DNA of 64,000 nucleotides from a virus (lineage: Duplodnaviria; Caudoviricetes). Location: positions 598-64,597 of the IMG/VR virus record IMGVR_UViG_3300022591_000005. One strand, written 5' to 3'. A model generated the notes under the pieces. The model was not told the DNA's origin. It searched no databases and worked only from the letters and a program-made list of their open reading frames with translations. Shown here one piece after another: positions 51,687 through 62,902 of this stretch. The position numbers were made by a program, and so were the translations under genes. The first letter of the stretch is position 1, and every line of letters begins with the position of its first letter.

Positions 51687-51713
51687 AGTACAGTATATAT
51701 CGTAAAAAATTAT

Positions 51714-51788: not shown

Positions 51789-51794
51789 AGTTAT

Positions 51795-51886
51795 GGCGGA
51801 TACTTTCCACATGGTTGTGGAGAGCATTCAGATCGGAATGTTTACAGCAAACTTTTTAACAGGTTCGACTCCTGTATCCGCCGCCT
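51795..51886 (+). ncRNA. tRNA-like RNA E4 with CAGCAA module replacing the anticodon arm
   Basis: ggcggat/atccgcc acceptor, T-arm, gcattc/gaatgt-ttacagcaa. Confidence 0.6.
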
Positions 51887-51894
51887 AACAAATT

Positions 51895-51968
51895 GCTCTA
51901 TTAGTATAATGGCAATACTCCGGTTTTGTAGTCCGGCAATCGTGGTTCGATTCCTCGATGGAGCACCA
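51895..51968 (+). tRNA. tRNA-Thr(TGT)
   Basis: Loop TTTGTAG, CCA. Confidence 0.8.
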
Positions 51969-52079
51969 AGAGCCTCACCCTTGCATATGGTGTATAATAG
52001 GATAAGTTGTATGCAGCAAACAGACCCCCGCTTTTCTAGATTGTGCGGTGAACAATCTAGAACAAATAAGTAAGTTTAT

Positions 52080-52153
52080 GCGGGTATGATGTAATGGTAA
52101 CCTGAAACCTTGCCAAGGTTTATTCGCGAGTTCGATTCTCGCTACCCGCTCCA
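52080..52153 (+). tRNA. tRNA-Gly(GCC)
   Basis: Loop TTGCCAA, U73-CCA. Confidence 0.9.
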
Positions 52154-52203
52154 TACATCCTTCCAGAGTTGTTCGTATAGCGTCCCCTGGAAGTTCTCAG
52201 TTT

Positions 52204-52310
52204 TAGGATCAGTTCAGCAATCTTAAATCCAAGCAGAATGTCGTGGGTTCGAATCCCACCTTAATTGTAGCTCAGTTGGTAGAGCGTCCGCCATAAAAAG
52301 ATGATCCTGT
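52204..52310 (+). ncRNA. CAGCAA-module RNA E5 enclosing a circularly permuted tRNA-Val-like domain (YrlA-like)
   Basis: T-arm precedes D-arm; closed by taggatc/gatcctg. Confidence 0.78.
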
Positions 52311-52323
52311 TAGTTTGACCATT

Positions 52324-52443
52324 TAGGTTCTTTTCAGCAAATTTAAATAATCTTTCTGCAAAAAAGAGAGGCTGGGTTCGAATCCCAGGCACAGCTTGGT
52401 CAGTTGTGTTAGTGTAGTGGTAGCACGAAAAAAGAGAACCTGT
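52324..52443 (+). ncRNA. CAGCAA-module RNA E6 enclosing a circularly permuted tRNA (GCA anticodon)
   Basis: Order: anticodon arm, T-arm, capped acceptor stem, D-arm; closed by taggttc/gaacctg. Confidence 0.8.
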
Positions 52444-52461
52444 TATAATAAGGAGACTACT

Positions 52462-52629
52462 GTGAAAGCAATTACATTTAAAAACAGATTTAATGGCGAA
52501 AAGGTAGTGTGCAAGGATGTTAAAGAAGTCCAAGTAATTGACGGTGTCGAGTACTTGCTTGTTAGCAAAACTGTACAAGATAGAAAATTCCTAATGCGTA
52601 AAGATGCATTAGAAAAAGTCAAAGGATAA
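52462..52629 (+). CDS. Hypothetical protein
   Basis: AAGGAG SD + GTG. Confidence 0.6.
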   Translation: MKAITFKNRFNGEKVVCKDVKEVQVIDGVEYLLVSKTVQDRKFLMRKDALEKVKG

Positions 52630-52633
52630 AATC

Positions 52634-53125
52634 ATGCAATGGATTCAAAACGTAGCAATGGTGGATGTAGCAAAAGGGCACCACTTTGATGCTGGTGTGA
52701 ATTCTATGCTTATCCAAATTGTAGACCCAGGAATGGAATTTCCTATTCCATTTAATAAGTTTGCAGAAGTGCATCAATTTCAATTCTTAGATTTGGAAAA
52801 AGATGACAAGGCTCCAGAAGAGTTAAAAATTCAGGACGAACAAGCAGAGCAACTTGTGGCTCTATTACAACATGCACTTGACAAACATATGCAAGTTGTA
52901 GTACACTGTGTTGCTGGAGTTTGTAGAAGTGGTGCAGTTTGTGAAGTTGGAGTAATGATGGGATTTAACGACACTGAAGTGTTTCGCAGCCCAAATTTAC
53001 TAGTCAAACACAAGATGATGAAAGTCTTAGGTTGGACATACGATGAAAACGAACCACACACTATAAACGGTATAACATTAGACTCGGGATTTATTGTCCC
53101 AAAGAATTACGAAGGTGATATATGA
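52634..53125 (+). CDS. Cys-dependent (tyrosine/dual-specificity-type) phosphatase
   Basis: HCVAGVCRS (CX5R). Confidence 0.85.
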   Translation: MQWIQNVAMVDVAKGHHFDAGVNSMLIQIVDPGMEFPIPFNKFAEVHQFQFLDLEKDDKAPEELKIQDEQAEQLVALLQHALDKHMQVVVHCVAGVCRSGAVCEVGVMMGFNDTEVFRSPNLLVKHKMMKVLGWTYDENEPHTINGITLDSGFIVPKNYEGDI

Positions 53126-53490
53126 GTATGTACAATATGCTGTTTGGTGTAAATCCTGACACTGATCAATTGATGGAAATCTTAGGAAAGACCCAAGGTG
53201 ATTTTGGTCGTTTCCGCAATGTCTATATGGAAGATGGTTACATTATTGTGCATACACGTAATGGTGGTGGCAACCGTGAAGACTATGAAGACGTATTCGA
53301 TGAAATGTCAGAGCACCCTTGGTATAGCCACGATGAAGATGATAGTTTTGACTGCACATACGCTAACATATACTTCAAGGTTCCCGAGAATCACGAAGAT
53401 TTTATGGCAATTCGTAACCTCAACGCAGGTAAGAGTCCAAGTAAGCAATGGGGTGAATTGCTTGCTACAATGGAAGCATTGAAAAAGTAA
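53122..53490 (+). CDS. Hypothetical protein
   Basis: HTRNGGGNR motif. Confidence 0.7.
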   Translation: MSMYNMLFGVNPDTDQLMEILGKTQGDFGRFRNVYMEDGYIIVHTRNGGGNREDYEDVFDEMSEHPWYSHDEDDSFDCTYANIYFKVPENHEDFMAIRNLNAGKSPSKQWGELLATMEALKK

Positions 53491-53500
53491 AGGAAAAGAA

Positions 53501-54049
53501 ATGAGAACATGGGTTACAAGTGACTTGCATTTTGGTCACAAGAATATCATGAAGTTCTGCCCTGTGACCCGTGCTCGTTTCCGCGATGACGTAGCATACA
53601 TGAATAACGCAATGGTTGAAGAATGGAACAACAAAGTTGCTCCGGAAGATACTGTTTACATCTTAGGTGATGTAGCGTTTATGTCGGGCAGTGATGCAGG
53701 ACGGATGATGCAACGTTTAAATGGTACAAAGATTTTGGTTGAAGGCAACCATGACCGTAAGACATTGATGGATGCAACATTCCGCAGTGCGTTTGCAGAA
53801 GTACACAAGTACTTGGATATTACATATGATGGTCACAAGATTGTCATGTTTCACTATCCAATTGCTGAATGGGATCAAATGCACAGAGGAGCATTGCACT
53901 TGTACGGTCACTTGCATGGCGGTACAAGCGGATTAGAAAAGTATCGTGCGTTTGATGTAGGAATGGACTCAACAGGTGAAATTTGTGTATCAATGGAATA
54001 CGTAATCAATCGTATTAAGGATAACGAAATTAAAGGACATCACGTATAA
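53501..54049 (+). CDS. Calcineurin-like metallophosphoesterase
   Basis: SDLHFGH, LGD, GNHD, HYP and GHLH motifs. Confidence 0.9.
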   Translation: MRTWVTSDLHFGHKNIMKFCPVTRARFRDDVAYMNNAMVEEWNNKVAPEDTVYILGDVAFMSGSDAGRMMQRLNGTKILVEGNHDRKTLMDATFRSAFAEVHKYLDITYDGHKIVMFHYPIAEWDQMHRGALHLYGHLHGGTSGLEKYRAFDVGMDSTGEICVSMEYVINRIKDNEIKGHHV

Positions 54050-54555
54050 TGGATACAATCGAAAAGGCTAGAGTTTTTGCAACTGCGGCACATGCAGCGG
54101 CGGCTCAACTTCGTAAGTATACGAATGAGCCTTATATTGTCCATCCTGCTGAAGTTGCTAGTATTATTGACAATCTTGAAGGTGCTTCTGTAGCTATGGT
54201 TGCAGCAGCATGGTTACATGATGTAGTCGAAGATACAGGAGTTACAATTGAAATCATCAAATCGGAGTTCGGTGAAGAAGTCGCAGACTTGGTGGGATGG
54301 CTTACCGACGTTAGCCGTCCGGAACAAGGTAACAGAGCAACACGCAAAGCAATTGACAGAGCGCACACTGCAATGGCACCCGCAGAAGCGCAAACAATCA
54401 AGTTGGCAGATTTAATTTCTAACTGCACAAGTATTGTTGAGCATGACGCAACATTTGCAAAAACATACTTAGAAGAAAAGAGATTACTGCTTGAAGTTTT
54501 AACAAAAGGCGATCGTTCTCTCTGGGAACACGCTAACAAGATTGTGAGCAAATAA
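54049..54555 (+). CDS. HD-domain hydrolase, small alarmone hydrolase/Mesh1-like
   Basis: AH..Q.RK...PYIVHP, LHDVVEDT and IKLAD..SN motifs. Confidence 0.85.
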   Translation: MDTIEKARVFATAAHAAAAQLRKYTNEPYIVHPAEVASIIDNLEGASVAMVAAAWLHDVVEDTGVTIEIIKSEFGEEVADLVGWLTDVSRPEQGNRATRKAIDRAHTAMAPAEAQTIKLADLISNCTSIVEHDATFAKTYLEEKRLLLEVLTKGDRSLWEHANKIVSK

Positions 54556-55460
54556 TGTTTAAAGACAAGTTGAAGGAGTACGTAGAGACTAGCGGCTTGG
54601 TTAACATGAAAGAAGCTGGCGACGGCATCTACGTACTCAAGTACAAGAAAAAAGTGTTCTACGATAACTTGTGGAACGAATACATTGCTGAATGCCGTGG
54701 ATCTGTTGTAGATAAGGATTTCAACCTAGTTGCATACCCATTTACAAAGATCTACAACTATGGAATTGAAAAGGAAGCACCTGTCCTATCTGATGATACT
54801 AAGGTAACTGCTTTTCGTAAAGTAAACGGTTTCATGGTAGCTTGTACTTGGTACAACGATGACGTTTTAGTGTCTACTACAGGTAGTACTGACAGCCCAT
54901 ACGTTGATATGGCCAAGGAAATGATGATGGAACACATGTGCTGGGCAGACTGGCAAATGGCATTGTGCAACACTGAGACCCAAGGCATGACATTTATGTT
55001 TGAGTGTGTGCATCCAAGTGATCCACATATCATCCCTGAAGAAGAAGGTATGTACCTCCTAGGATATCGTGAAAACGAATTTGGCAGCAATGTGGGTCAC
55101 GACCCATTCGTGTTGCAAGACTTAGGTCGCATGTTTAATTGTTTCGTGCCAGAAAGTGTAACAACTAACATGGCTCGACTAAAGCAATTAGCTAAGGAAT
55201 GCAAGCACGAAGGTTATGTATTCTATACAGATGATGGTGTAAGTGCTAAGATCAAGTCGCCATACTACTTAACTTCAAAGTGGGTTGCTCGCAATCCACG
55301 TACAGATAAGTTAGTAGACTTGAACAAGGACATTAAGCACAACATTGACGAAGAGTATTACGGATTGATTGATCATATCCGTGCTAACATTGTTGAGTAT
55401 ACTGCTATGGACGAGCAAGCTCGTTTATCGTGGGTGCGTAACTATATGGAGGCGGCCTAA
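54555..55460 (+). CDS. RNA ligase (T4 Rnl1-like)
   Basis: ECRG, PFTKIYN, KVNG (motif I), FE, EGYV and KIKS motifs. Confidence 0.82.
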   Translation: MFKDKLKEYVETSGLVNMKEAGDGIYVLKYKKKVFYDNLWNEYIAECRGSVVDKDFNLVAYPFTKIYNYGIEKEAPVLSDDTKVTAFRKVNGFMVACTWYNDDVLVSTTGSTDSPYVDMAKEMMMEHMCWADWQMALCNTETQGMTFMFECVHPSDPHIIPEEEGMYLLGYRENEFGSNVGHDPFVLQDLGRMFNCFVPESVTTNMARLKQLAKECKHEGYVFYTDDGVSAKIKSPYYLTSKWVARNPRTDKLVDLNKDIKHNIDEEYYGLIDHIRANIVEYTAMDEQARLSWVRNYMEAA

Positions 55461-55467
55461 GGATGAA

Positions 55468-55677
55468 ATGTTTGACAGCTATCAAACATCGACTCCTGAA
55501 AAGGTAACATATAACTGGGAACAGGTATTTGCCTGGCTCCCAGTTGCTGTTCATGGCAAACGTAAATGGTTTACTAAAGTGTGGCGTAGGAAAGTTGCTG
55601 TCTATGGTGATGAAAGAAACATGCCGCTGCGATACCAGTACGGTAATATATTTGATGTAATCAAGGACGAAGAATGA
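55468..55677 (+). CDS. Hypothetical protein
   Basis: FAWLPV motif. Confidence 0.55.
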   Translation: MFDSYQTSTPEKVTYNWEQVFAWLPVAVHGKRKWFTKVWRRKVAVYGDERNMPLRYQYGNIFDVIKDEE

Positions 55678-55886
55678 ATGATGAAAGTCACTTGCCTGTA
55701 GCAGAACAAAGCCTACTGTTCCGTTTACGCAAAAGAGCAGAAATACGTAGGTCTATTCCAGGTAGGCTAGCAGTTGTAGAAGGGAAACCAGATAAGATTG
55801 CTAACTTGTTAGATGAAGCAGCAGACGAAATTGAACATTTACAAGAAACTGTAGCAGCACTTGTTGCTCAGAGGCTTGGGGGATAG
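55674..55886 (+). CDS. Hypothetical protein
   Basis: RLRKRAEIRR..LLDEAADEIE. Confidence 0.65.
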   Translation: MNDESHLPVAEQSLLFRLRKRAEIRRSIPGRLAVVEGKPDKIANLLDEAADEIEHLQETVAALVAQRLGG

Positions 55887-55888
55887 TT

Positions 55889-56476
55889 ATGTTAGTAGAA
55901 CCGTTATTTCCAGTACCGATTTATGTATGTCAAGTAGCAGATAAACTTAACATTCAAAAAGAGTGTTTAGACTCAGTAAATAAGTTTGGAGCAAGTTTCT
56001 TTTCTAAGTCACCTGTTGTCGATCCTATTAGTCATAGTTTGTCTGATCCTACGTTTACATCTAATTTGATTGCAGACATTGGGCTTGTACACATCGAAAA
56101 AGAAATTCATCAGCAAGTAACCAATTATTTGTTGCAGCTCGGACATAGATCTATTCAAAGTTTTAAAATTGTTGCTAGTTGGATGACTCATACAGCACCA
56201 AAAGAGTATACTCCTGTACACGATCATGCATCAGCAGATCTATCAGGTGTGTATTATATAAAAACTAATGGGCAAGATGGTGAAATATTTTTCATGGATC
56301 CAAATCCAGCAATGAATGCAACTTATTGTTTTTCTACTCTGCCTAAAAGATATGCACATGCACCCGAAGAAGGAAAAATGGTTATTTTTCCCGGTTGGTT
56401 ATTGCATGGTGTAAATTCAAATCAAACCGATGATGTACGCATTAGTATATCATTCAATATTTTGTTTGATAGATAA
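55889..56476 (+). CDS. 2OG-Fe(II) oxygenase-like protein (TIGR02466-type)
   Basis: HDH..SGVYY, FPGWLLH and RISISFN motifs. Confidence 0.82.
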   Translation: MLVEPLFPVPIYVCQVADKLNIQKECLDSVNKFGASFFSKSPVVDPISHSLSDPTFTSNLIADIGLVHIEKEIHQQVTNYLLQLGHRSIQSFKIVASWMTHTAPKEYTPVHDHASADLSGVYYIKTNGQDGEIFFMDPNPAMNATYCFSTLPKRYAHAPEEGKMVIFPGWLLHGVNSNQTDDVRISISFNILFDR

Positions 56477-56479
56477 TTT

Positions 56480-56557
56480 GCCCCTCTGGACAAATTGGTA
56501 AAGTCGTCTCTCTCAAAAGGAGAAGTTCTCACAGTTCGAATCTGTGGAGGGGTACCA
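56480..56557 (+). tRNA. tRNA-Leu(CAA), short variable arm
   Basis: Loop CTCAAAA, CCA. Confidence 0.8.
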
Positions 56558-56566
56558 AAGTTTAAT

Positions 56567-56682
56567 GCCGCTGTCGTCTAATGGTAGGACACTTAAAAAG
56601 GTGACTCTGTTTAGAGTACGTTCAGCATAAATTTTTCCATGTCAAGGAAGAGACGGGGGTTCGAATCCCTCCGGCGGCGCCA
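56567..56682 (+). tRNA. tRNA-Asp(GTC)-like gene with ~40-nt CAGCA-module insert (E7)
   Basis: gccgctg/cggcggc-GCCA; ttcc-ATGTCAA-ggaa; insert between D-arm and anticodon arm. Confidence 0.72.
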
Positions 56683-56689
56683 AGTTAAT

Positions 56690-56811
56690 GTGTGAATGCT
56701 GAAACGGTAGACAGCTGGACGGCAGTTCGGGTAAAGGGTTCGAGTCCCTTGGAAGTCCGCAAGACTTTTAGTATGGTACTATTGGAGGTTCGAATCCTTC
56801 TTCACACACCA
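56690..56811 (+). ncRNA. tRNA-like RNA with two T-arms and no clear anticodon arm
   Basis: gtgtgaa/ttcacac-ACCA; two GGTTCGA loops. Confidence 0.6.
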
Positions 56812-56814
56812 GTT

Positions 56815-56925
56815 TAGGATAGTTACTGCAAACACTTTTCTCGCTCCACAACTCGCGAGGGTGGCCCGCTGGGGGTTAAAGTTCCAATTAAGGGTTCGAG
56901 TCCCGCCCTGGAACACCTATCCTGT
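56815..56925 (+). ncRNA. CAGCAA-module RNA E8
   Basis: taggatag..ctgcaa...T-loop hairpin...ctatcctg. Confidence 0.65.
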
Positions 56926-56928
56926 TTT

Positions 56929-57002
56929 GCTCCTATAGTTAAATGGAAGAACACTACTTTGGTAAAGTAGAAATACAAGTTCGATTCTTGTTAGGAGCAC
57001 CA
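56929..57002 (+). tRNA. tRNA-Thr(GGT)
   Basis: Loop TTGGTAA, CCA. Confidence 0.85.
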
Positions 57003-57006
57003 ATTT

Positions 57007-57081
57007 GCGGCGGTAGTCTAATGGAAAGGCAACGCTCTTCTAAAGCGTCCTATGTAGGTTCGAGTCCTATTCGCCGCACCA
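57007..57081 (+). tRNA. tRNA-Arg(TCT)
   Basis: Loop CTTCTAA, CCA. Confidence 0.85.
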
Positions 57082-57086
57082 ATAAT

Positions 57087-57161
57087 GGGCCATTAGCTCA
57101 ATGGAAGAGTTCCGGTCTTCGAAACCGGTTGTTGCAGGTTCGAGTCCTGTGTGGCCCACCA
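57087..57161 (+). tRNA. tRNA-Arg(TCG)
   Basis: Loop CTTCGAA, CCA. Confidence 0.85.
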
Positions 57162-57191
57162 AAAATATTTTAAAAATATTTCAAAAAGATG

Positions 57192-57220
57192 TTGACATAC
57201 AGCACTTTAGACTATATAAT
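57192..57220 (+). promoter_or_regulatory. Sigma70 promoter for the second tRNA block
   Basis: TTGACA-17-TATAAT. Confidence 0.8.
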
Positions 57221-57280
57221 AGATACTTAGACAGTTAGGAAAGACTAACAAACGTTCATTAAAAATCTAAGAGATAATAT

Positions 57281-57356
57281 GCTGGGTTCGTCTAGAGGCC
57301 TAGGACATCGCCCTTTCACGGCGAGAACACGGATTCGAATTCCGTACCCAGTACCA
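57281..57356 (+). tRNA. tRNA-Glu(TTC)
   Basis: Loop CTTTCAC, CCA. Confidence 0.9.
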
Positions 57357-57474
57357 TTATTGAAACGCACAAATGCGTAGGCCACGCAGATGTTGCGGAA
57401 ACAGCTTTGCCCTGTATAGAGCAAGGTTCGCAGGTTCAACTCCTGTAAGTGTATTTCAATAATGGTAAAGTTTC

Positions 57475-57551
57475 GCCCAGGTGATGGAATTGGTATACGT
57501 GTTGGTCTTAGAAGCCAAATTTTGTGGGTTCGAGTCCCACCCTGGGCACCA
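57475..57551 (+). tRNA. tRNA-Leu(TAG), short variable arm
   Basis: Loop CTTAGAA, CCA. Confidence 0.85.
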
Positions 57552-57555
57552 AATT

Positions 57556-57639
57556 GGAGTAGAAGCATCAATGGTGATGCAGTGGACTGTAAATCCGCCG
57601 CCTTTGGCACGCCTGGTTCGATCCCAGGATACTCCACCA
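57556..57639 (+). tRNA. tRNA-Tyr(GTA)
   Basis: Loop CTGTAAA, CCA. Confidence 0.85.
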
Positions 57640-57644
57640 AATTA

Positions 57645-57735
57645 TGGAAATGTGGCAGAGTCCGGTTTATTGCAGCAGTCTTGAAAACTGCCGAGTAGAA
57701 ATGCTCCGTGAGTTCAAATCTCACCGTTTCCGCCA
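57645..57735 (+). tRNA. tRNA-Ser(TGA)
   Basis: Loop CTTGAAA, long variable arm, CCA. Confidence 0.9.
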
Positions 57736-57966
57736 AATTAGGAAATAGTAAATCTCACCGTTTCCGACAATTATGCAGTTTGTGTATGGAGTAATATTCC
57801 TGTATGCGAATAAAAACAGCAATGTTCTGCGCCAATTTATGCTTGCTGAAGTTTAACTACACTGGAGCACATCGAGTAACCTTGAAGTCGACTATATGGG
57901 TAAAAGTTGCCAGGAAGATCCGGAGTTAAACAGTTTGGTTCGAATCCAACAGCGAGCTCCTTTTAT

Positions 57967-58042
57967 GCGGCATTAGCTCAATCGGGAGAGCACAGCACTG
58001 TCACTGCTGAGGTAAGGGGATCGAAACCCCTATGTCGCGCCA
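57967..58042 (+). tRNA. tRNA-Asp(GTC)
   Basis: Loop CTGTCAC, CCA. Confidence 0.88.
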
Positions 58043-58047
58043 ATCAT

Positions 58048-58117
58048 GCCCTGGACTGTGTTGCGAGTCGGATTTGAAGCCGAACGTAGACAGGTTCGAT
58101 TCCTGTTAGGGGCGCCA
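58048..58117 (+). pseudogene. Short, D-arm-deficient tRNA-like element
   Basis: T-arm acagg-TTCGATT-cctgt and GCCA end; reduced D-arm. Confidence 0.45.
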
Positions 58118-58168
58118 AATTAATGTAATCATTGTTGTGATGAGAGAAAAAAGAGAGTATAATTAACA

Positions 58169-58372
58169 ATGTATAAAGTAAACGATAAAATAAATGAAAC
58201 AGAATTTCCTAGCTTAGACTTAGCTATGGAATTTGCAAAAGGTTTAAACCGTTACGTTACTATAACAGGTGGTGGAATGGAGATTGTTGGTATCTTTGGT
58301 GCTGACAGTATTAAGGACGGTAAGTGCCCAGACGGTGTAGACTACACTTGGATGAAGCGCCGTAATCAATAA
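58169..58372 (+). CDS. Hypothetical phage protein
   Basis: EIVGIFGAD..G.CPDG..Y.W.KRR; TATAAT just upstream. Confidence 0.7.
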   Translation: MYKVNDKINETEFPSLDLAMEFAKGLNRYVTITGGGMEIVGIFGADSIKDGKCPDGVDYTWMKRRNQ

Positions 58373-58438
58373 TGCGACTGTGGTGAAATAGGTAGACACA
58401 AAAATGTCTTATTTGTTTGTGTTTAGTATAAATACAAT

Positions 58439-58879
58439 ATGAAAGAAATTACCGATTTTATCAAACTTCCTAGAGAAGACCGCAGGGCGCATTTGAACTT
58501 AGAAGAGCTATGTTGTGAGCGTGGAGGTAACTCCACTAATCATAAAGGTGTGTTAGCACAGTATTTGGATACAACTATTCCTAGCGGACGCATACTATTG
58601 TGCCATGCTTGTAATAATAGTAAGTGCAGTAACCCTAAACATTTGTATTGGGGCACTGACTACGATAATATTATTATAGACGGAACTAATTTTCAAACTC
58701 ATAAAAGTCCTTGGGACAGAAGGGTTGAAAAATACGGTTACGAAAAAGCATCTGCTATGAATAGCAGAGTAAGCAATACTAATGGTGCTGGCAACAAAGG
58801 TAAACCTAAGACAGAAGAACACAAAAGAAAGATTGCGGAAGCTATTAAAAGAAAGTATAATAGCAATGTAGAGAAATAA
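58439..58879 (+). CDS. HNH (His-Me finger) homing endonuclease with NUMOD3-like tail
   Basis: LCHACNNSKCSNPKHLYWGT..DN; TEEHKRKIAEA; TATAAATA late promoter. Confidence 0.85.
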   Translation: MKEITDFIKLPREDRRAHLNLEELCCERGGNSTNHKGVLAQYLDTTIPSGRILLCHACNNSKCSNPKHLYWGTDYDNIIIDGTNFQTHKSPWDRRVEKYGYEKASAMNSRVSNTNGAGNKGKPKTEEHKRKIAEAIKRKYNSNVEK

Positions 58880-58880
58880 T

Positions 58881-58965
58881 GCTCCGATGATGAAATAGGT
58901 AAACATAGCAGACTTAAAATCTGCCGCTTAACGGCTTCCCGGTTCGATTCCGGGTCGGAGCACCA
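58881..58965 (+). tRNA. tRNA-Leu(TAA)
   Basis: Loop CTTAAAA, long variable arm, CCA. Confidence 0.9.
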
Positions 58966-59021
58966 AGTATTTTGCGAACAGTTCGATTCTGGTCAGTCGC
59001 ACCAATTTAAGGAGAAGCTGT

Positions 59022-59165
59022 ATGTCAAGTAAAGAAACGTTAGACAAGGCATACGGCAATATGCCTAAAGAAGTTGGATATACTACAGAAATGTTTGAAT
59101 GGATGCCAACATTTCGTGGTATCAAGTACTACTGGTATAAACTAGTACGTAAGGTAACAAGATAA
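59022..59165 (+). CDS. Small hypothetical protein (not in ORF track)
   Basis: AAGGAG SD; MSSKETLDKAYG... Confidence 0.55.
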   Translation: MSSKETLDKAYGNMPKEVGYTTEMFEWMPTFRGIKYYWYKLVRKVTR

Positions 59166-59170
59166 TATTC

Positions 59171-59264
59171 GGAGAGTTGGGTGAGCGGCTGAAACCACCT
59201 TCCTGCTAAGAAGACATACGGGCCAAAACCTGTATCGAGGGTTCGAATCCCTCACTCTCCGCCA
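59171..59264 (+). tRNA. tRNA-Ser(GCT)
   Basis: Loop CTGCTAA, long variable arm, CCA. Confidence 0.9.
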
Positions 59265-59284
59265 AGATAACAAAAAGGAAAAAC

Positions 59285-59479
59285 ATGGCTAAAACTAACG
59301 CAAACTTTAAATTGAGCAAGACAGCAAAACGCATGGTAGCTTTAATGGGAGGTCCTGCAGAAGGTCGTAATCAATTTAAGCGTATGATGATTGATGCAGA
59401 ATACGCTGCTAGTATTGTTCCAAAGTCCACTAAGAAAGAACGTGGAAATAATTTTGCTGCACCAGCAGCAACTGAATAA
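59285..59479 (+). CDS. Hypothetical protein
   Basis: AAGGA SD; FKLSK..KRM motif. Confidence 0.65.
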   Translation: MAKTNANFKLSKTAKRMVALMGGPAEGRNQFKRMMIDAEYAASIVPKSTKKERGNNFAAPAATE

Positions 59480-59492
59480 GTAAGTATACTGT

Positions 59493-59569
59493 TCCCTGAT
59501 AGCTCAGTTGGTAGAAGCACTTGACTGTTAATCAAGGTGTCGCTGGTTCGAGCCCAGCTCGGGGAGCCA
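59493..59569 (+). tRNA. tRNA-Asn(GTT)
   Basis: Loop CTGTTAA, CCA. Confidence 0.9.
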
Positions 59570-59579
59570 AAGTTTACGT

Positions 59580-59655
59580 GGGGGTATAGCTCATCTGGTA
59601 GAGCAGGTGCTTTGCAAGCATCAGGTGGCGGGTTCGAGTCCTGTTGCCTCCACCA
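59580..59655 (+). tRNA. tRNA-Ala(TGC)
   Basis: G3:U70, loop TTTGCAA, CCA. Confidence 0.9.
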
Positions 59656-59671
59656 ATAGTTAGGAGAAATT

Positions 59672-59938
59672 ATGGTAGCAAGAAATGATATTACAGGTGA
59701 CACAATTCAAACAAAAGGTGTTACTGATTCTTATCGTAGCAACTATGATAACATTTTTAGGAAAGATAAAATGCAAGTTCGAGTTAAAGAAAACGCAGAA
59801 GAATTTGGCAAGTGCGGATGTGGTCGTAGCCCAACTGGTAAATGTATCGGTTGGCATGGGCTAACTGAAGATCAGTTTAAAGAAGCACAAGAAAAATATT
59901 TTACCAATCAGGAAGACACATCAGGTAATCCTGTGTAA
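59672..59938 (+). CDS. Small protein with CDGSH-like Fe-S motif
   Basis: CGCGRSPTGKCIGWH. Confidence 0.6.
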   Translation: MVARNDITGDTIQTKGVTDSYRSNYDNIFRKDKMQVRVKENAEEFGKCGCGRSPTGKCIGWHGLTEDQFKEAQEKYFTNQEDTSGNPV

Positions 59939-59953
59939 AATAAATAATTCATT

Positions 59954-60029
59954 GCCCGTTTAGCTCATTTGGTAGAGCAACGCACTTGTAATGCGTAGGT
60001 GGTCAGTTCGAATCCGACAACGGGCACCA
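59954..60029 (+). tRNA. tRNA-Thr(TGT)
   Basis: Loop CTTGTAA, CCA. Confidence 0.9.
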
Positions 60030-60034
60030 GGTTT

Positions 60035-60154
60035 TAGGATAGGTTCAGCAAACAACTAGCGGCTAATACCCGCATCGTATGACGGGCAGAGATAACTTCA
60101 CAGCCTATCAAAATGTTTTTGCTGTTTCATTAAAAAATGGCAGAAACTATCCTG
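60035..60154 (+). ncRNA. CAGCAA-module RNA E9
   Basis: taggatag..ttcagcaa...ctatcctg. Confidence 0.68.
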
Positions 60155-60465
60155 CTTATAACACCCGGTTTACACTTTTACGTTATTAAAGTGCGTTATT
60201 GCTAGAGACGAGAGTAGCACGGTGCATTGGATCTACCGCAAGGCTCACAGAGAGCGACTTGAGAAATCACAAAGGCAGGACGCTAACCTGTCTAAATAGA
60301 AAAAGACGTGGACGGGGTAACGACCCAGTCTTGGGCGCATGTGGTGTGTGTGGCAAGACATCTTTATCAAATACATTTAACCTAACCATAGGCTTAGGTA
60401 GTAAGGACGGGGCACCGGGTCATAGAAGAGCCAAAAGCCATAAGTGTGTTTGATAAAGATTTTAT

Positions 60466-60540
60466 GGACGGGTGGCAGAGCGTTTATGCACTGGATTGCA
60501 AACCCGGATTAGGTAGGTTAAACTCCTACCCCGTCCTCCA
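60466..60540 (+). tRNA. tRNA-Cys(GCA), atypical T-loop
   Basis: Loop TTGCAAA, U73-CCA. Confidence 0.78.
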
Positions 60541-60547
60541 AGTTTTT

Positions 60548-60621
60548 GCGGGGTTCGTATAGTGGTAATACCTTAGCCTTCCAAGCTAATGCTGAGAGTT
60601 CGATTCTCTTACCCCGCTCCA
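60548..60621 (+). tRNA. tRNA-Gly(TCC)
   Basis: Loop CTTCCAA, CCA. Confidence 0.9.
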
Positions 60622-60627
60622 CAGTTT

Positions 60628-60683
60628 TAGGTTCCATTCAGCAAATAAAAATTTTACTCATAGTGAAAAAAAGCGGAACCTGT
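60628..60683 (+). ncRNA. CAGCAA-module RNA E10 (CAU anticodon hairpin)
   Basis: taggttcc..cagcaa..tttta-CTCATAG-tgaaa..ggaacctg. Confidence 0.75.
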
Positions 60684-60691
60684 CGTATTTT

Positions 60692-60768
<77 letters not shown>

Positions 60769-60774
60769 ATTTAT

Positions 60775-60848
60775 AGCGGGTAGGGTGGTCACCACTCCAG
60801 TCTCATAAGCTCGGAGCATCGGCAGTTCGAATCTGTCACCCGCATCCA
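60775..60848 (+). tRNA. tRNA(CAT), initiator-like and atypical
   Basis: 1:72 mismatch, loop CTCATAA, short D-arm. Confidence 0.65.
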
Positions 60849-60852
60849 ACAT

Positions 60853-60928
60853 AGGACTTTAGCTCAGTTGGTAGAGCGTCTGCCTTACACGCAGAATGTC
60901 GTCAGTTCGAACCTGGCAAGTCCTACCA
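60853..60928 (+). tRNA. tRNA-Val(TAC)
   Basis: Loop CTTACAC, CCA. Confidence 0.9.
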
Positions 60929-61030
60929 TAACAACGAGAAAACATGTATCTCAGCGTTGAGTCCGTTAGTGGCAAGTAATACGCAACACTTCATGTTGGC
61001 ACTCCGGAATAGACGTGAGCATAGATTTAT

Positions 61031-61108
61031 GCACAGGTGGCAGAGTGGCCCAATGCAACGGATTGCAAATCCGTAAAGTCGTGAGTTCAAATCTCACCCT
61101 GTGCTCCA
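61031..61108 (+). tRNA. tRNA-Cys(GCA)
   Basis: Loop TTGCAAA, U73-CCA. Confidence 0.88.
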
Positions 61109-61169
61109 ATTTTGTTAGTTTTGCTAAAACTAGCTGGTGGAGTGGAAATCATATTTTCCCCAAAATAGG

Positions 61170-61198
61170 TTGACAATACCTACAAATAATTGTATAAT
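61170..61198 (+). promoter_or_regulatory. Sigma70 promoter of the E11-E12-TROVE-like unit
   Basis: TTGACA-17-TATAAT. Confidence 0.85.
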
Positions 61199-61224
61199 AA
61201 AGACATGTTAAGCAATTAGCATGT

Positions 61225-61436
61225 TAGGATGATTACAGCAACTTCAACTATACTATGAACTGCCATAATAATCGTCGAAAGACGTTAAAAGGCTAGTGCT
61301 TGTAGAATACAAGATAGTGTCCGTAGAAACGGAATAGTAGTCGGTATTGAATAATCCGAATAGACTGATGGAACTTGAACCGATGTACTGGGGATGGGGA
61401 TTAGTCGATAAACTCCTACCGTTCCGCTCATCCTGT
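61225..61436 (+). ncRNA. Long CAGCAA-module RNA E11 (~210 nt)
   Basis: taggatga..acagcaa...several hairpins...tcatcctg. Confidence 0.7.
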
Positions 61437-61439
61437 TAA

Positions 61440-61476
61440 TAGGTTATTAACAGCAAACATTTTTAATCGTAACCTG
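61440..61476 (+). promoter_or_regulatory. Minimal CAGCAA module E12 abutting the RBS (putative autoregulatory site)
   Basis: taggtta-ttaacagcaa...taacctg directly before AAGGA and ATG 61490. Confidence 0.7.
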
Positions 61477-61489
61477 AAAGGAAAGACAC

Positions 61490-62902
61490 ATGAACACTTT
61501 TGTTAATGCAGTAGTAAATCAAGAAGCCACTACCACAAATGGTATGAAGGCACGTAAGTCAACAGCTAAGTCTACAGTTGACTTGTTCTACGGAATCGGT
61601 GCAAGCCGTGGTAAGAACATTGTACCAGCGTTTACCGCTGCGTATGTAGAAGACAAGGATCTAGCATTGCGTATTGCCCTTTGGGCACGTGATGCGCGAG
61701 GTGGTGCGGGTGAACGTCAGTTGTTCCGCGACATTTTGAAGCACTTGGAAAAGACTGATAAAGCAGCAGCTTCTGCTCTTTTGAAGAAGATTCCAGAGTT
61801 GGGTCGTTGGGACGATATTTTCGTCTTTACTGACAAGGACTTGAAGGCACAAGCATACACAATGCTTGGTGATGCCCTTCGTGCTAGTAACGGACTAGCA
61901 GCAAAGTGGACTCCTCGTAAGGGTGAGGTCGCTCGCGAAATCCGTGAATTCTTTGGTATGACACCAAAGCAATATCGTAAGAGTCTTGTGGCTCTTACAA
62001 AGGTTGTTGAAACCCAAATGTGCTCAGGCGACTGGGATAACATTAACTTCAGTCACGTTCCTAGCGTTGCTAGTGCTCGTTACAAGAAGGCATTCAACCG
62101 TCACACTACAAAGTTCGCTGAGTACGTGCAAAAGTTGGTCGATAAGACTGACCCAACTGTTAAGGTTAACGCCGCAGCAGTTTACCCATATGACGTGTTG
62201 AAGGGTATCAACAGCTATAGCAACAACTATAGCAAGACTGAATTGGACCACATTGTGGCTCAATGGGCAGCTCTTCCAAACTTTGTTGGCGATGCTAACA
62301 TTCTACCTTTGGTAGACGTTAGTGGTTCCATGTGCTGCCCAGCAGGTGGATCAGGTACAACAACCTGTATGGATGTTGCAGTTTCACTAGGTTTGTACCT
62401 AGCTGAAAAGAACCAAGGTAAGTTCAAGGATACGTTCTTGACTTTCAGTTCAAACCCACAACTATTGCACCTTAAGGGTAACGTAGTTGAAAAGATGAAC
62501 CAAATGGTTAAGTCCGATTGGGGCATGGGTACTGACTTGCACAAGGCATTTGAAAAGATCCTTGATGTTGCAGTTAAAGGCGGAGTACCTCAAGCAGAAA
62601 TGCCAGAGATGCTTTTGATCTTGAGTGATATGCAATTTAACGGTTGCGTTACACACAATGACAGCGCCATGGAAATGATCGAACGCAAGTATGAGGCTGC
62701 AGGTTACACTCTGCCACAAGTTGTGTTCTGGAACTTGAACAGTAAGGATAATGTGCCTGTGAAAGCAGACAAGTCCGGCGCTGCTCTAGTATCTGGCTTC
62801 AGTCCAGCTATCATGAAGGCTTTGCTTTCCGCTGATATGAGTGAATTCACTCCTGAAGGGATCATGCGTAAGACTGTAATGGTCGATCGCTACAACTACT
62901 AA
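61490..62902 (+). CDS. TROVE/Ro60-like (DUF2828-type) protein with C-terminal vWA domain
   Basis: RDARGGAGER, GRWDD, AAKWTPR helical region; MIDAS DVSGS, GTD, SDMQF, FWNL, SGFS. Confidence 0.8.
   Translation: MNTFVNAVVNQEATTTNGMKARKSTAKSTVDLFYGIGASRGKNIVPAFTAAYVEDKDLALRIALWARDARGGAGERQLFRDILKHLEKTDKAAASALLKKIPELGRWDDIFVFTDKDLKAQAYTMLGDALRASNGLAAKWTPRKGEVAREIREFFGMTPKQYRKSLVALTKVVETQMCSGDWDNINFSHVPSVASARYKKAFNRHTTKFAEYVQKLVDKTDPTVKVNAAAVYPYDVLKGINSYSNNYSKTELDHIVAQWAALPNFVGDANILPLVDVSGSMCCPAGGSGTTTCMDVAVSLGLYLAEKNQGKFKDTFLTFSSNPQLLHLKGNVVEKMNQMVKSDWGMGTDLHKAFEKILDVAVKGGVPQAEMPEMLLILSDMQFNGCVTHNDSAMEMIERKYEAAGYTLPQVVFWNLNSKDNVPVKADKSGAALVSGFSPAIMKALLSADMSEFTPEGIMRKTVMVDRYNY

What the first reader, a model, noticed from the sequence alone, without database searches (positions are those of the whole stretch)
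56567..56682. tRNA-Asp carrying the CAGCA module as an insert, the circular permutant of E6
Seen: an otherwise complete tRNA (GUC loop, GCCA end) has ~40 nt inserted between the D-arm and anticodon arm: aaaaaggtgactctgt-ttagagt-acgttcagcataa. This is the module's 3' strand followed by its 5' strand. It sits at the same junction where E6 is opened, and a canonical Asp tRNA exists separately at 57967. The element at 51795-51886 has the same inverted module in place of the anticodon arm. Inference: the module is a topology-independent protein tag that can be attached to tRNA bodies with normal ends, or an unusual intron removed with the phage ligase.
Basis: partly seen in the sequence, partly recalled or inferred. 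Interest (0 to 1): 0.8.

Follow-up and report, generated by a model that had tools for sequence, protein, structure and literature searches.

The report
Phage tRNA with Ro-docking arm
A giant phage encodes a complete transfer-RNA look-alike whose anticodon stem sprouts an extra hairpin that matches the shared module of the phage's Y-like small RNAs, a design kept in distant phages and apparently not described before.

Summary
Window 56567-56682 is a full cloverleaf (7-bp acceptor, D arm, T arm, GUC loop, G73-CCA) carrying a 42-nt insert. The insert is a capped hairpin followed by CAGCA. It is the closed form of a module that flanks ten linear Y-RNA-like elements in this window (10 matches, 0.19 expected by chance).

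One refinement: covariation puts the insert inside the anticodon stem, after its first three pairs, not at the D-arm/anticodon-arm border.

A covariance model finds 24 distinct members. They come from uncultured freshwater jumbo phages and from cultured Synechococcus phage BUCT-ZZ01, Vibrio phage nt-1 and Xanthomonas phage XbC2. Of 574 pair cells, 97.7% pair, and the module stem itself covaries.

The neighbouring 470-aa DUF2828 protein folds as a Ro60/TROVE ring. Its mRNA leader carries the same module.

In all three phages checked, a canonical tRNA with the same anticodon is also present. This argues for a retained docking arm on a tRNA mimic rather than an intron.

Binding, processing and charging are untested. 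I rate it a new variant of the Y RNA/YrlA kind. Earlier notes of this scan on other genomes describe only linear YrlA-type RNAs.

The parts
56567..56573 (+). acceptor stem, 5' strand (GCCGCUG)
   Evidence: Pairs with 56672-56678. All 7 pairs are kept in 24 of 24 relatives, with compensatory changes.
56576..56590 (+). D arm (GUCU-AAUGGUA-GGAC), with G18 and G19
   Evidence: 4 pairs, 100% paired in 24 sequences. U8, A14 and the GG are invariant or nearly so.
56592..56594 (+). proximal anticodon stem, 5' strand (CUU, nt 27-29)
   Evidence: Pairs with 56648-56650. In A5 the first two pairs hold in 17 of 17 sequences, with 4 and 7 compensatory changes; 0 of 500 shuffles reach the score. In A6 they hold in 23 of 24 and 22 of 24. 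This helix was not part of the search model.
56595..56603 (+). A-rich joiner (AAAAAGGUG), the module's 3'-side loop strand
   Evidence: An A-rich stretch precedes the 3' stem strand in both the linear and the closed copies.
56604..56617 (+). module hairpin ACUCU-GUUU-AGAGU (closed form of the Y-like stem)
   Evidence: Relatives have AUCCU/AGGAU, AUUCU/AGAAU, AUACU/AGUAU, AUUCC/GGAAU and UAAUCA/UGAUUA. 99.2% of cells pair and 4 of 5 pairs show compensatory change.
56618..56627 (+). bulge strand ACGUU-CAGCA (CAGCA at 56623-56627)
   Evidence: CAGCA in 20 of 24 closed members; CUGCA in 2; CGGCA in 2. The same motif occurs in 10 linear copies in the window.
56628..56636 (+). AU-rich linker
   Evidence: Variable in length and sequence. 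Constrained folds show no conserved pairing with the A-rich joiner.
56637..56647 (+). distal anticodon hairpin CC-AUGUCAA-GG; anticodon GUC at 56641-56643
   Evidence: Read from the sequence. After in-silico removal of the insert, ARAGORN calls tRNA-Asp(gtc) in 53 of 60 called deletion variants.
56648..56650 (+). proximal anticodon stem, 3' strand (AAG, nt 41-43)
   Evidence: Partner of 56592-56594.
56651..56671 (+). 4-nt variable loop and T arm (GGGGG-UUCGAAU-CCCUC)
   Evidence: T stem 100% paired in 24 sequences; GGTTC...A...TCC is invariant in the 17-sequence alignment.
56672..56682 (+). acceptor stem 3' strand, discriminator G, encoded CCA
   Evidence: NCCA is encoded in 19 of 24 members (my count on the alignment).
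61490..62902 (+). Ro60-like protein gene (Pfam DUF2828 + DUF7788; PHROG 850 'RNA-binding protein')
   Evidence: Pfam and PHROGs. AlphaFold2 model with pLDDT 93.5. The top 13 Foldseek PDB matches are all Ro60/TROVE, TM 0.42-0.64. The MIDAS residues D276, S278 and S280 are invariant.
61441..61475 (+). small linear module in the 5' leader of the Ro60-like gene, abutting its ribosome-binding site
   Evidence: The same arrangement is found in 24 of 68 related loci.
52322..52446 (+). linear, circularly permuted counterpart (probably 'E6'): module ends open, acceptor closed by a 7-nt loop, GCA loop
   Evidence: The minimum-energy fold gives exactly this structure, z = -3.73. Segment map.
51795..51886 (+). 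second closed-module element, with the module in place of the anticodon arm; ends GCCU
   Evidence: Fold z = -4.88. Found by the stem-agnostic scan. No homologue in the 80 loci.
57967..58042 (+). canonical tRNA-Asp(GTC), redundant with the element's anticodon
   Evidence: ARAGORN; Rfam tRNA 60.5 bits.
54555..55460 (+). T4 Rnl1-type RNA ligase, preceded by HD and metallo-phosphoesterase genes (53501-54555)
   Evidence: Pfam RNA_lig_T4_1; PHROG 562.

Best explanation
**What it is.** The element is a non-decoding, tRNA-shaped member of the phage's Y-RNA-like family.

**How it is made (inferred).** It is transcribed within the tRNA array and trimmed like a tRNA: RNase P at the 5' end, with the CCA already encoded.

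**How it folds.** It forms an L-shaped tRNA body. The 5' strand of the anticodon stem is interrupted between nt 29 and 30 by a third arm. That arm is a 5-7 bp hairpin with a tetraloop cap. Its base carries the A-rich and YNCAGCAA strands that all of the phage's linear Y-like RNAs share.

**What it does (inferred).** The arm is kept in the mature RNA. It is the docking site for the phage's Ro60-like ring protein (DUF2828 family). The tRNA body, with a free CCA end and an exposed anticodon loop, serves as the effector or bait part. It would bring the Ro-like protein to a tRNA-recognising partner. Candidates are host anticodon-loop nucleases (as decoy or sensor) or the phage's own Rnl1-type tRNA repair enzymes.

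**Shown here.**
- The structure and its conservation.
- The identity of the module in the closed and the linear forms.
- The Ro60 fold of the protein (a prediction).
- Co-occurrence of RNA and gene.

**Inferred only.** Binding, retention of the arm, and the partner.
For: 1. **Same module, rotated.** Stem, capped end, A-rich strand and CAGCA strand keep the same order relative to the body as in 10 linear copies.
2. **Conservation.**
   - The covariance model R1 scores 7 copies at 117.5-127.1 bits, in the window and 6 loci of 51 sources; the next best hit, an ordinary tRNA, scores 44.3.
   - With the pattern-found loci, the uncultured phages give 17 distinct sequences. R1 also finds copies in BUCT-ZZ01 (2), nt-1 (3) and XbC2 (4) at E <= 1e-8. 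Seven of those 9 pass E <= 1e-9 in the loci I held, which gives the 24-sequence alignment.
   - On those 24 sequences, 97.7% of 574 cells pair, 20 of 24 pairs have compensatory changes, and 0 of 500 shuffles reach the score.
3. **A helix the model did not contain.** The proximal anticodon helix covaries, so the RNA is selected to fold as a three-way junction with the arm in place.
4. **The protein.** Predicted fold is Ro60/TROVE plus a vWA domain with a MIDAS site.
5. **Co-occurrence.** 7 of 10 pattern-found contigs hold the gene, including all 4 genomes that are at least 99% complete. The 3 without it are fragments, 2-14% complete.
6. **Leader module.** The same module lies next to the ribosome-binding site of the Ro-like gene in the window and in 24 of 68 loci. 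This is the usual sign of a protein that binds its own mRNA through a copy of its ligand.
7. **A lineage-wide motif.** ACAGCAA modules with lineage-specific stems flank YrlA-like RNAs beside DUF2828 genes in mycobacteriophage Krypton555 and in Felixounavirus REP7.
8. **Redundant anticodon.** A canonical tRNA with the same anticodon exists in 3 of 3 phages checked.
9. **Precedent.** M. smegmatis YrlA is cut by RNase P and receives CCA in vivo (PMC4201824, passages read).
Against: - No experiment shows binding, processing or retention of the arm.
- The motif C(A/U/G)GCAA is not the GNCGAAN0-1G or GGUCCGA motif of known Ro60 sites (PMC4201824). The protein matches DUF2828, not Pfam TROVE.
- Notional removal of the insert leaves a perfect 5-bp anticodon stem. 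By my reading, 10 of the 17 uncultured members have a regular 7-nt loop. That is also what a spliced tRNA would need.
- Loop sequences recur across distant phages, for example AUUCAUAA and AUAGGGA. The loop is therefore under a selection that this model does not explain.
- 11 of the first 17 sequences were found with a pattern that fixes ATCCTG..AGGAT..CAGCA, which biases that subset.
- The four model helices were counted on an alignment fitted to the model.
- The element is missing after the same tRNA-Leu in closer relatives such as L065.
- The Ro-like gene lies 4.8 kb away.
Confidence: 0.6

Rival explanations
1. **Intron-bearing tRNA-Asp gene.** The 42-nt arm is cut out by an unidentified endonuclease. 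The halves are healed and sealed by the phage phosphoesterases and the Rnl1-type ligase. The product is a normal decoding tRNA, and the module is the splicing signal.
For: - Removal of 56595-56636 restores a perfect CUUCC/GGAAG stem and a 7-nt AUGUCAA loop. ARAGORN then calls Asp(gtc) in 53 of 60 called variants.
- The proximal stem covaries.
- An Rnl1-type ligase with HD and metallo-phosphoesterase genes lies 1-3 kb upstream.
- In BUCT-ZZ01, copy 2 would become a regular tRNA-Asn(GUU).
Against: - No splicing endonuclease was found among the 67 window ORFs scanned. The contig is only about 17% of the genome, so this is weak.
- No helix joins the two borders in constrained folds, so there is no bulge-helix-bulge shape.
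- The insert is far too short for a group I intron, and Rfam finds none.
- The same module flanks small hairpins and replaces the anticodon arm in RNAs where nothing could be restored: 49945, 50854, 51795, L148, L185.
- 7 of 17 relatives would yield 8-nt loops. Three would be GCU 'Ser' tRNAs without a long extra arm.
- The anticodon is redundant in 3 of 3 phages checked.
- No joint across the insert appears among the 15 joints listed for three RNA runs; 52 further joints were not shown.
Confidence: 0.12
2. **Working tRNA-Asp with the arm kept.** The RNA is charged and used on the ribosome while it carries the docking arm.
For: - The window copy has G73, G10, GUC, U33 and an encoded CCA.
- These are elements that AspRS is known to use (recalled knowledge, not tested here).
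Against: - The arm leaves the anticodon stem at nt 29/30.
- From known ribosome structures (recalled), that part of the stem is closely packed against 16S rRNA in the A and P sites. A 42-nt branch there should clash.
- Many relatives have irregular loops.
- A canonical tRNA-Asp is present.
Confidence: 0.05
3. **Processing substrate.** The module marks a site where a host or phage RNase cuts, and the element yields two tRNA halves or fragments that act on their own.
For: - Linear modules lie right behind tRNA 3' ends (CCA-AGTTT-AGGAT), so they sit at processing sites of the array transcript.
Against: - The stable tetraloop cap (GNNA in 19 of 24, my count) points to a folded unit.
- So does the covarying three-way junction.
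- Nothing in the data shows cleavage.
Confidence: 0.05
4. **Decaying tRNA gene.** The gene was hit by chance by a copy of the module and has no function of its own.
For: - It is absent from some closer relatives.
- It is redundant with a canonical tRNA-Asp.
Against: - 24 distinct members at 72% mean column identity (for the 17-sequence alignment) keep every helix through compensatory changes.
- This holds across hosts as far apart as cyanobacteria, Vibrio and Xanthomonas.
Confidence: 0.03

Closest known systems
YrlA-type bacterial and phage Y RNAs (Rfam RF02553; Chen et al. 2014, PMC4201824, abstract and passages read)
   Same: - A small RNA encoded with a Ro60-type gene.
- It combines a protein-binding helix with a tRNA-like domain that has D and T arms.
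- The window's linear copy at 52205-52308 gives a partial YrlA match of 30.9 bits. So does the RNA beside the DUF2828 gene of mycobacteriophage Krypton555, at 38.3 bits.
   Different: - In YrlA the binding helix is formed by the RNA's own 5' and 3' ends, and the acceptor stem is sealed by a loop. Here the helix is an internal capped hairpin, and the acceptor is open with an encoded CCA.
- A full anticodon stem-loop is kept.
- The motif is C(A/U/G)GCAA, not GNCGAAN0-1G.
- The Rfam YrlA model does not match 56567-56682, even at E <= 10.
[quoted passage not shown]
   Same: It ends up as a Ro60-bound RNA whose tRNA-like domain has a free 5' end at +1 and a 3' CCA.
   Different: - That state is reached by cutting a sealed acceptor loop, which leaves a two-piece RNA.
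- Here the open topology is written in the gene, and the RNA is one piece.
tmRNA, including the permuted two-piece form that this phage also encodes (39499-39877)
   Same: A tRNA-like acceptor and T-arm domain with a CCA end. A large functional insert stands where the anticodon arm would be.
   Different: - tmRNA has no anticodon loop and carries a reading frame.
- Its partner is SmpB, not a Ro60-type ring.
tRNA genes with introns at non-canonical sites in archaea, and permuted tRNA genes of Cyanidioschyzon merolae (recalled knowledge; only a search listing seen)
   Same: - An extra segment interrupts a cloverleaf outside the anticodon loop.
- Linear and permuted versions of the same parts exist side by side.
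   Different: - Those inserts are flanked by a bulge-helix-bulge fold and are removed by a splicing endonuclease.
- No such fold or enzyme was found here.
- Here the insert has a conserved sequence of its own.
Bas63 gp130, a Ro60-like protein next to a tRNA array in a Felixounavirus (preprint PMC11482910, passage read)
   Same: - A phage protein with Ro60-like structure beside tRNA genes. The authors suggest that some of those 'tRNAs' are Y RNAs, and they report that gp130 counters the ppl defence.
- The related phage REP7 has linear ACAGCAA modules beside its DUF2828 gene.
   Different: - No RNA was defined there.
- In REP7 the model found no closed form at E <= 1e-8.

Membership tests
Y RNA (Ro60-associated small RNA) | Encoded together with a Ro60/TROVE-type protein gene | tested here: met
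   - A gene with predicted Ro60 fold lies 4.8 kb downstream on the same strand.
- 7 of 10 pattern-found contigs hold the gene, including all 4 complete genomes.
- The three cultured phages with closed forms were themselves found through that gene.
Y RNA (Ro60-associated small RNA) | Physically bound by the Ro60 protein | not testable with these tools
   Only indirect support: the same module lies in the gene's own mRNA leader, in the window and in 24 of 68 loci.
Y RNA (Ro60-associated small RNA) | Binding helix formed by the RNA's 5' and 3' ends, carrying the GGUCCGA / GNCGAAN0-1G motif | tested here: not met
   - The helix is an internal capped hairpin, and the motif is CAGCA(A).
- The known motif is taken from PMC4201824.
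YrlA (Rfam RF02553) | Match to the family covariance model at its gathering score (69 bits) | tested here: not met
   No YrlA match at 56567-56682, even at E <= 10. This is expected, because the order of the parts is rotated.
YrlA (Rfam RF02553) | tRNA-like domain with D and T arms able to form the elbow | tested here: met
   - D and T helices are 100% paired in 24 sequences.
- U8, A14, the D-loop GG and T-loop UUC..A are invariant or nearly so.
tRNA (Rfam RF00005) | Full-length match at the gathering score / call by a tRNA finder | tested here: not met
   - Partial match of 24.1 bits against a cut-off of 29.
- ARAGORN makes no call.
tRNA (Rfam RF00005) | Four cloverleaf helices supported by covariation, and a CCA end | tested here: met
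   -.
- The anticodon stem exists but its 5' strand is interrupted.
- NCCA is encoded in 19 of 24 members.
tRNA (Rfam RF00005) | Aminoacylation and decoding | not testable with these tools
   - The window copy has a regular 7-nt GUC loop.
- 7 of the 17 uncultured members have 8-nt loops.
Intron-containing tRNA gene | Recognisable splice signal: a bulge-helix-bulge fold at both borders, or a group I/II intron core | tested here: not met
   - Constrained folds of 17 members show no helix joining the two borders.
- No intron family is found in Rfam.
- The insert is 42 nt.
Intron-containing tRNA gene | A splicing endonuclease is available | tested here: inconclusive
   None among the 67 window ORFs scanned with Pfam. 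The contig is about 17% of the genome, and host enzymes are unknown.
Intron-containing tRNA gene | Spliced product seen in RNA | tested here: inconclusive
   Only assembled contigs of RNA runs could be laid. No joint over the insert is among the 15 listed, and 52 were not shown.

The most novel reading that the evidence does not exclude
Phages with Ro60-like proteins keep a set of 'shadow tRNAs'. These are faithful copies of particular tRNAs (Asp, Asn, CAU-type and others), each with a Ro-docking arm built into the anticodon stem.

The copies would act as bait for host nucleases that cut anticodon loops. The bound Ro-like ring would sense or capture the cut RNA and couple it to the phage's Rnl1-type repair, or block the nuclease.

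This would be a new counter-defence principle. It would also be the first case in which a Y-type RNA presents a complete tRNA with an open acceptor end and an encoded CCA that might be charged.
Probability: 0.2. Interest if true: 0.85.

Novelty: new variant of a known kind. Interest (0 to 1): 0.7.

Why it matters
**An open question about Y RNAs.** Y RNAs are thought to tether Ro60 rings to other machines, but what the tRNA-like part of bacterial Y RNAs engages is unknown.

**What this class adds.** The tRNA part is complete, with an open acceptor, CCA and an anticodon loop of defined type. The protein handle is a separable hairpin. This gives a clean way to ask what the tRNA mimic is for.

**It can be tested now.** The class occurs, unannotated, in phages that can be grown: Synechococcus phage BUCT-ZZ01, Vibrio phage nt-1 and Xanthomonas phage XbC2.

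**A shared motif.** The large DUF2828 'RNA-binding protein' family of phages has homologues in 705 phage records. In the four phage lineages looked at here, the C(A/U/G)GCAA module lies beside or near its gene. That gives annotators a simple mark for Y-like RNAs that tRNA finders now miss or mislabel.

Tried and rejected
**RNA evidence**
- RNA-library contigs of runs X13, X17 and X18, plus DNA run X5, were laid on 49400-61500. Only assembled contigs were available, and tRNA-like pieces of other organisms add to them. Nothing can be said about expression, ends or splicing of 56567-56682.

**Protein searches**
- The single-sequence AlphaFold model of the 470-aa protein was useless, pLDDT 38.7. 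It was replaced by the alignment-based model.
- phmmer of the protein against PDB sequences gave no meaningful hit.
- Pfam TROVE does not match at E <= 0.01.

**Searches for further copies**
None has a tRNA context.
- No homologue of the 51795-51886 element was found in the 80 related loci. Those loci reach at most 10 kb upstream of the Ro-like gene.
- The giant-virus contigs with tandem module-like repeats could not be searched for the Ro-like gene, because the records are not held.

**Structure ideas that failed**
- A small hairpin between N26 and the module (A5 columns 27-30 with 37-40) is only 80.6% paired and has no significant covariation. It also competes with the better-supported long-range helix.
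- Pairing between the A-rich joiner and the AU-rich linker is not conserved in constrained folds.
- ARAGORN in intron mode on the intact sequences gives inconsistent, spurious calls.

**Literature and earlier notes**
- The search for 'DUF2828' gave 5 papers, none on phage RNA.
- Searches for closed or permuted Y RNA/tRNA in phages found no description of this architecture.
- Two reviews by Sim, Wolin and colleagues were not held. The supplements of Chen et al. 2014 were not read. Any of these might list such RNAs.
- Look-ups in this scan's earlier notes returned nothing on this genome, and only linear YrlA-type findings elsewhere.
Full report
**Context**

The window is almost all of a 64.6-kb IMG/VR viral contig. 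It is estimated at about 17% of a genome, so it comes from a jumbo phage.

It carries:
- two tRNA arrays, at 49.5-52.2 kb and 56.4-61.1 kb;
- a permuted tmRNA;
- a CTA suppressor tRNA.

The genes around them include cyanophage-like auxiliary genes (heme oxygenase, bilin reductase), DnaK and ribonucleotide reductase. Between the arrays lie a dual-specificity-phosphatase-like gene, metallo-phosphoesterase and HD phosphohydrolase genes, and a T4 Rnl1-type RNA ligase.

Positions 56567-56682 read as follows:
- a 7-bp acceptor stem;
- a D arm, GUCU-AAUGGUA-GGAC;
- a T arm with UUCGAAU;
- a 7-nt loop, AUGUCAA, with anticodon GUC;
- discriminator G and an encoded CCA.

Within this body sit about 42 extra nucleotides holding the hairpin ACUCU-GUUU-AGAGU followed by ACGUU-CAGCA.

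ARAGORN misses the element. Rfam gives only a partial tRNA match of 24.1 bits. A canonical tRNA-Asp(GTC) lies at 57967-58042.

**The module**

The motif AGGWTN5CWGCAA occurs 10 times in the window. All copies are on the + strand and inside or beside the tRNA arrays. Chance expectation is 0.19.

Each copy has a downstream partner strand of 7-8 bp, NNNATCCT or NNAACCT, followed by G. An A-rich stretch precedes that strand.

These are linear Y-RNA-like elements whose middle parts vary:
- small hairpins (49945, 50854, 60629);
- a T-arm/D-arm domain that gives a partial Rfam YrlA match of 30.9 bits (52205-52308);
- a complete, circularly permuted tRNA with its acceptor sealed by a 7-nt loop (52322-52446; fold z = -3.73);
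- larger bodies (56816, 60036, 61226).

In the element under study the same parts appear with the module's ends joined by a 4-nt cap and the acceptor open. A segment-by-segment map shows the same circular order and equal lengths of the D arm (15), anticodon arm (17), variable loop (4), T arm (17) and acceptor (7).

The element at 51795-51886 is a second closed form. Its module stands in place of the anticodon arm.

**Relatives**

The 470-aa protein at 61490-62902 was used to fetch 80 related loci. nhmmer with the element found full-length homologues, insert included, in 9 of them. These collapse to 5 distinct sequences.

A pattern scan of viral contigs added more. Many matches of that scan are chance hits in coding DNA. 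Its hits also fix the stem and CAGCA by construction, so they cannot show conservation of those letters.

From 17 distinct sequences I built covariance model R1.
- Over 51 sources (806 kb) it scored the 7 true copies at 117.5-127.1 bits. The next best hit, an ordinary tRNA, scored 44.3.
- Run over whole records of five cultured phages that encode the protein, it found closed forms at E <= 1e-8 in three:
  - Synechococcus phage BUCT-ZZ01: 2 copies, directly behind the protein gene, 92.6 and 60.9 bits;
  - Vibrio phage nt-1: 3 copies, 83.9, 71.3 and 62.4 bits, in a stretch with no annotated feature;
  - Xanthomonas phage XbC2: 4 hits, 67.7 to 47.7 bits.
- It found none in Klebsiella phage fENko-Kae01 or E. 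coli phage REP7.

**Structure and covariation**

On the 17 uncultured sequences, all 357 pair cells of the acceptor, D, module and T helices form standard pairs. 14 of 21 pairs show compensatory change, and 0 of 500 shuffles reach the score.

On 24 sequences that include 7 copies from the cultured phages:
- 97.7% of 574 cells pair;
- 20 of 24 pairs show compensatory change;
- the module hairpin is 99.2% paired, with compensatory change at 4 of its 5 pairs.

The module stems seen are AUCCU/AGGAU, ACUCU/AGAGU, AUUCU/AGAAU, AUACU/AGUAU, AUUCC/GGAAU and UAAUCA/UGAUUA. These alignments are fitted to the model, which favours the four modelled helices.

One helix was not in the model. The 2-3 nt right after N26 pair with the last nt of the anticodon-stem 3' strand. 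In the window that is CUU 56592-94 with AAG 56648-50.
- In the 17-sequence alignment the first two pairs hold in 17 of 17, as CG/UA/AU and as UA/GC/CG/UG. 0 of 500 shuffles reach the score, and slid controls fall to 40-70% paired.
- In the 24-sequence alignment they hold in 23 of 24 and 22 of 24.

The strand next to the loop does not covary in this way; that is my reading.

The insert (56595-56636) therefore interrupts the 5' strand of the anticodon stem between nt 29 and 30, and the RNA is a three-way junction. It also means that E6, which is opened at 26/27, is a near but not an exact rotation.

My counts on the alignment:
- the cap is GNNA in 19 of 24;
- the motif is CAGCA in 20, CUGCA in 2 and CGGCA in 2;
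- NCCA is encoded in 19 of 24.

**The anticodon-like loop**

Among the 17 uncultured members, 10 have 7-nt loops:
- GUC in 4;
- GCU in 3;
- GAU, UCU and UCC in 1 each.

The other 7 have 8-nt loops.

The cultured phages add GUU (2 copies), CAU, AUUCAUAA and AUAGGGA. AUUCAUAA recurs in freshwater, Vibrio and Xanthomonas phages. AUAGGGA recurs in nt-1 and XbC2. So the loops are not drifting freely, but many are not decoding loops either.

In each of the three phages checked, a canonical tRNA with the same anticodon is present:
- Asp in the window;
- Asn, and three Met(CAT), in BUCT-ZZ01;
- two Asn in nt-1.

**The protein**

The 470-aa product matches Pfam DUF2828 and DUF7788 and PHROG 850, 'RNA-binding protein'.

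With an alignment of 102 sequences, AlphaFold2 gives pLDDT 93.5 and pTM 0.92. The 13 best Foldseek matches in the PDB are all Ro60/TROVE proteins, from Xenopus, human, Deinococcus Rsr and Thermus phage phiLo. E-values run from 5e-8 to 2e-5 and TM-scores from 0.42 to 0.64, over the full length. Plain vWA domains follow from rank 14. A DxSxS MIDAS motif is invariant.

Homologues occur in 705 phage records, some of them annotated 'Ro-like RNA binding protein' in mycobacteriophages.

Link between RNA and gene:
- All 5 contigs first tested that hold a closed form also hold the gene; 4 of these are genomes at least 99% complete.
- 2 of 5 further contigs hold it. The 3 without it are fragments, 2-14% complete.
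- A small linear module (61441-61475) lies in the gene's 5' leader, next to the ribosome-binding site. The same is true in 24 of 68 related loci with my strict search, and it appears to be so in genome G002.

The same ACAGCAA motif, with lineage-specific stems, flanks YrlA-like RNAs elsewhere:
- beside the DUF2828 gene of mycobacteriophage Krypton555, with stem GGACnn/nnGUCC;
- in Felixounavirus REP7, with stem AGACCnn/nnGGUCU. There a permuted tRNA-like copy is annotated as a 131-nt 'tRNA-Thr'.

**Reading**

The best-supported account is a tRNA-shaped Y-like RNA in which the Ro-docking module is retained as a side arm of the anticodon stem. The body is an effector or bait for a tRNA-recognising partner.

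What is known for canonical systems fits this:
- Y RNAs tether Ro60 to partners.
- YrlA mimics tRNA.
- M. smegmatis YrlA is cut by RNase P and receives CCA (PMC4201824, passages).
- A phage Ro60 binds phage Y-like RNAs and host PNPase (PMC12135203, abstract and passages).
- Jumbo phages combine ROT/TROVE proteins with RNA ligases (PMC7824862, passage).
- A Felixounavirus Ro60-like protein counters a defence system (PMC11482910, passage).

The intron reading is kept as a rival, for two reasons. Notional excision restores a perfect stem, and a healing-and-sealing enzyme set is nearby. Against it stand:
- the lack of any splice signal or endonuclease;
- the use of the same module in RNAs where nothing could be restored;
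- the irregular loops;
- the redundancy with canonical tRNAs.

Decoding with the arm in place is unlikely. The arm leaves the stem where the ribosome packs against it (recalled structural knowledge).

**Novelty**

Searches of the paper library found linear Y RNAs only. Passages of five papers were read. Nothing described a closed, internal docking arm on an open-ended tRNA body.

Two reviews were not held and the supplements of Chen et al. 2014 were not read, so earlier mention cannot be fully excluded.

Earlier notes of this scan hold only linear YrlA-type cases on other genomes.

I class the element as a new variant of a known kind.

Noticed in passing
window 61441-61475 (and L001, L004-L009, L016, L017, L020-L022, L052, L065-L071, L073-L075): A minimal linear module, AGGTTAnnnnCAGCAA...TAACCTG, sits in the 5' leader of the Ro60-like gene and directly abuts the Shine-Dalgarno sequence. 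It is found in 24 of 68 related loci. This looks like autoregulation of the protein through a copy of its RNA ligand.
   Followed up: partly
window 56690-56811: The neighbour of the element is another odd tRNA-like RNA. It has a 7-bp acceptor with ACCA and two T-arm-like hairpins (GGGTTCGAGTCCC and GGAGGTTCGAATCCTTC), but no CAGCA module. Fold z is only -1.82, and model R1 gives 26.5 bits.
   Followed up: partly
window 50750-50848 and 50492-50576: Two long tRNA-like genes that ARAGORN does not call. The first is a 96-nt tRNA (Rfam 57 bits) with a long extra arm. The second matches Rfam tRNA-Sec exactly at threshold (47.8 against 47).
   Followed up: no
window 39499-39877 and 40122-40195; L207 7749-8167 and 6627-6702: A permuted tmRNA and a CTA (amber-reading) tRNA lie side by side, both here and in Synechococcus phage BUCT-ZZ01. 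This may point to TAG recoding or to a ribosome-rescue function of the phage.
   Followed up: no
L096, L105, L130, L131, L138, L145, L150 (giant-virus MAG contigs): Tandem repeats, 64-76 nt apart and often at contig ends, each hold AGTATCCTGTATAGGATACATCCAGCAA. That is a 7-bp capped hairpin followed by CAGCAA, the same design as the closed module. The records could not be searched for a Ro-like gene.
   Followed up: no
G004:C1:31094-33431 and G010:C1:38419-40741: In two related phages the Ro60-like gene is in two pieces (residues 1-135 and 117-469; 1-134 and 133-469), about 0.9 kb apart. This suggests an intervening element.
   Followed up: no
L211 8321-8451 (E. coli phage REP7, OQ174506): The feature annotated as a 131-nt 'tRNA-Thr_GGT' is a linear, circularly permuted tRNA-like Y RNA flanked by the module variant AGACCGTT-TACAGCAA ... 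AACGGTCTGG. Three more such modules lie at 7710-8360.
   Followed up: partly
L330 3480-3745 (mycobacteriophage Krypton555): Three linear modules with stems GGACnn/nnGTCC and the motif ACAGCAA follow the 'RNA-binding protein' gene. The middle one holds the YrlA-like tRNA domain (Rfam 38.3 bits). So CAGCAA, not GNCGAA, seems to be the mark of the DUF2828 branch.
   Followed up: partly
window 60000-60244 and 61290-61389: Contigs from RNA libraries cover parts of the large linear Y-like elements 60036-60153 and 61226-61434 (X13 record 8; X17 record 16). The tool warns that contig depth cannot rank expression.
   Followed up: no
L148 84-198, L185 119-215, L144 about 100-200: Reduced closed-form RNAs. 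One has acceptor, T arm and module with no D or anticodon arm. One has acceptor, a D-like hairpin, module and T arm. One is a bare GGGGC/GCCCC mini-helix with GCCA that carries the module.
   Followed up: partly
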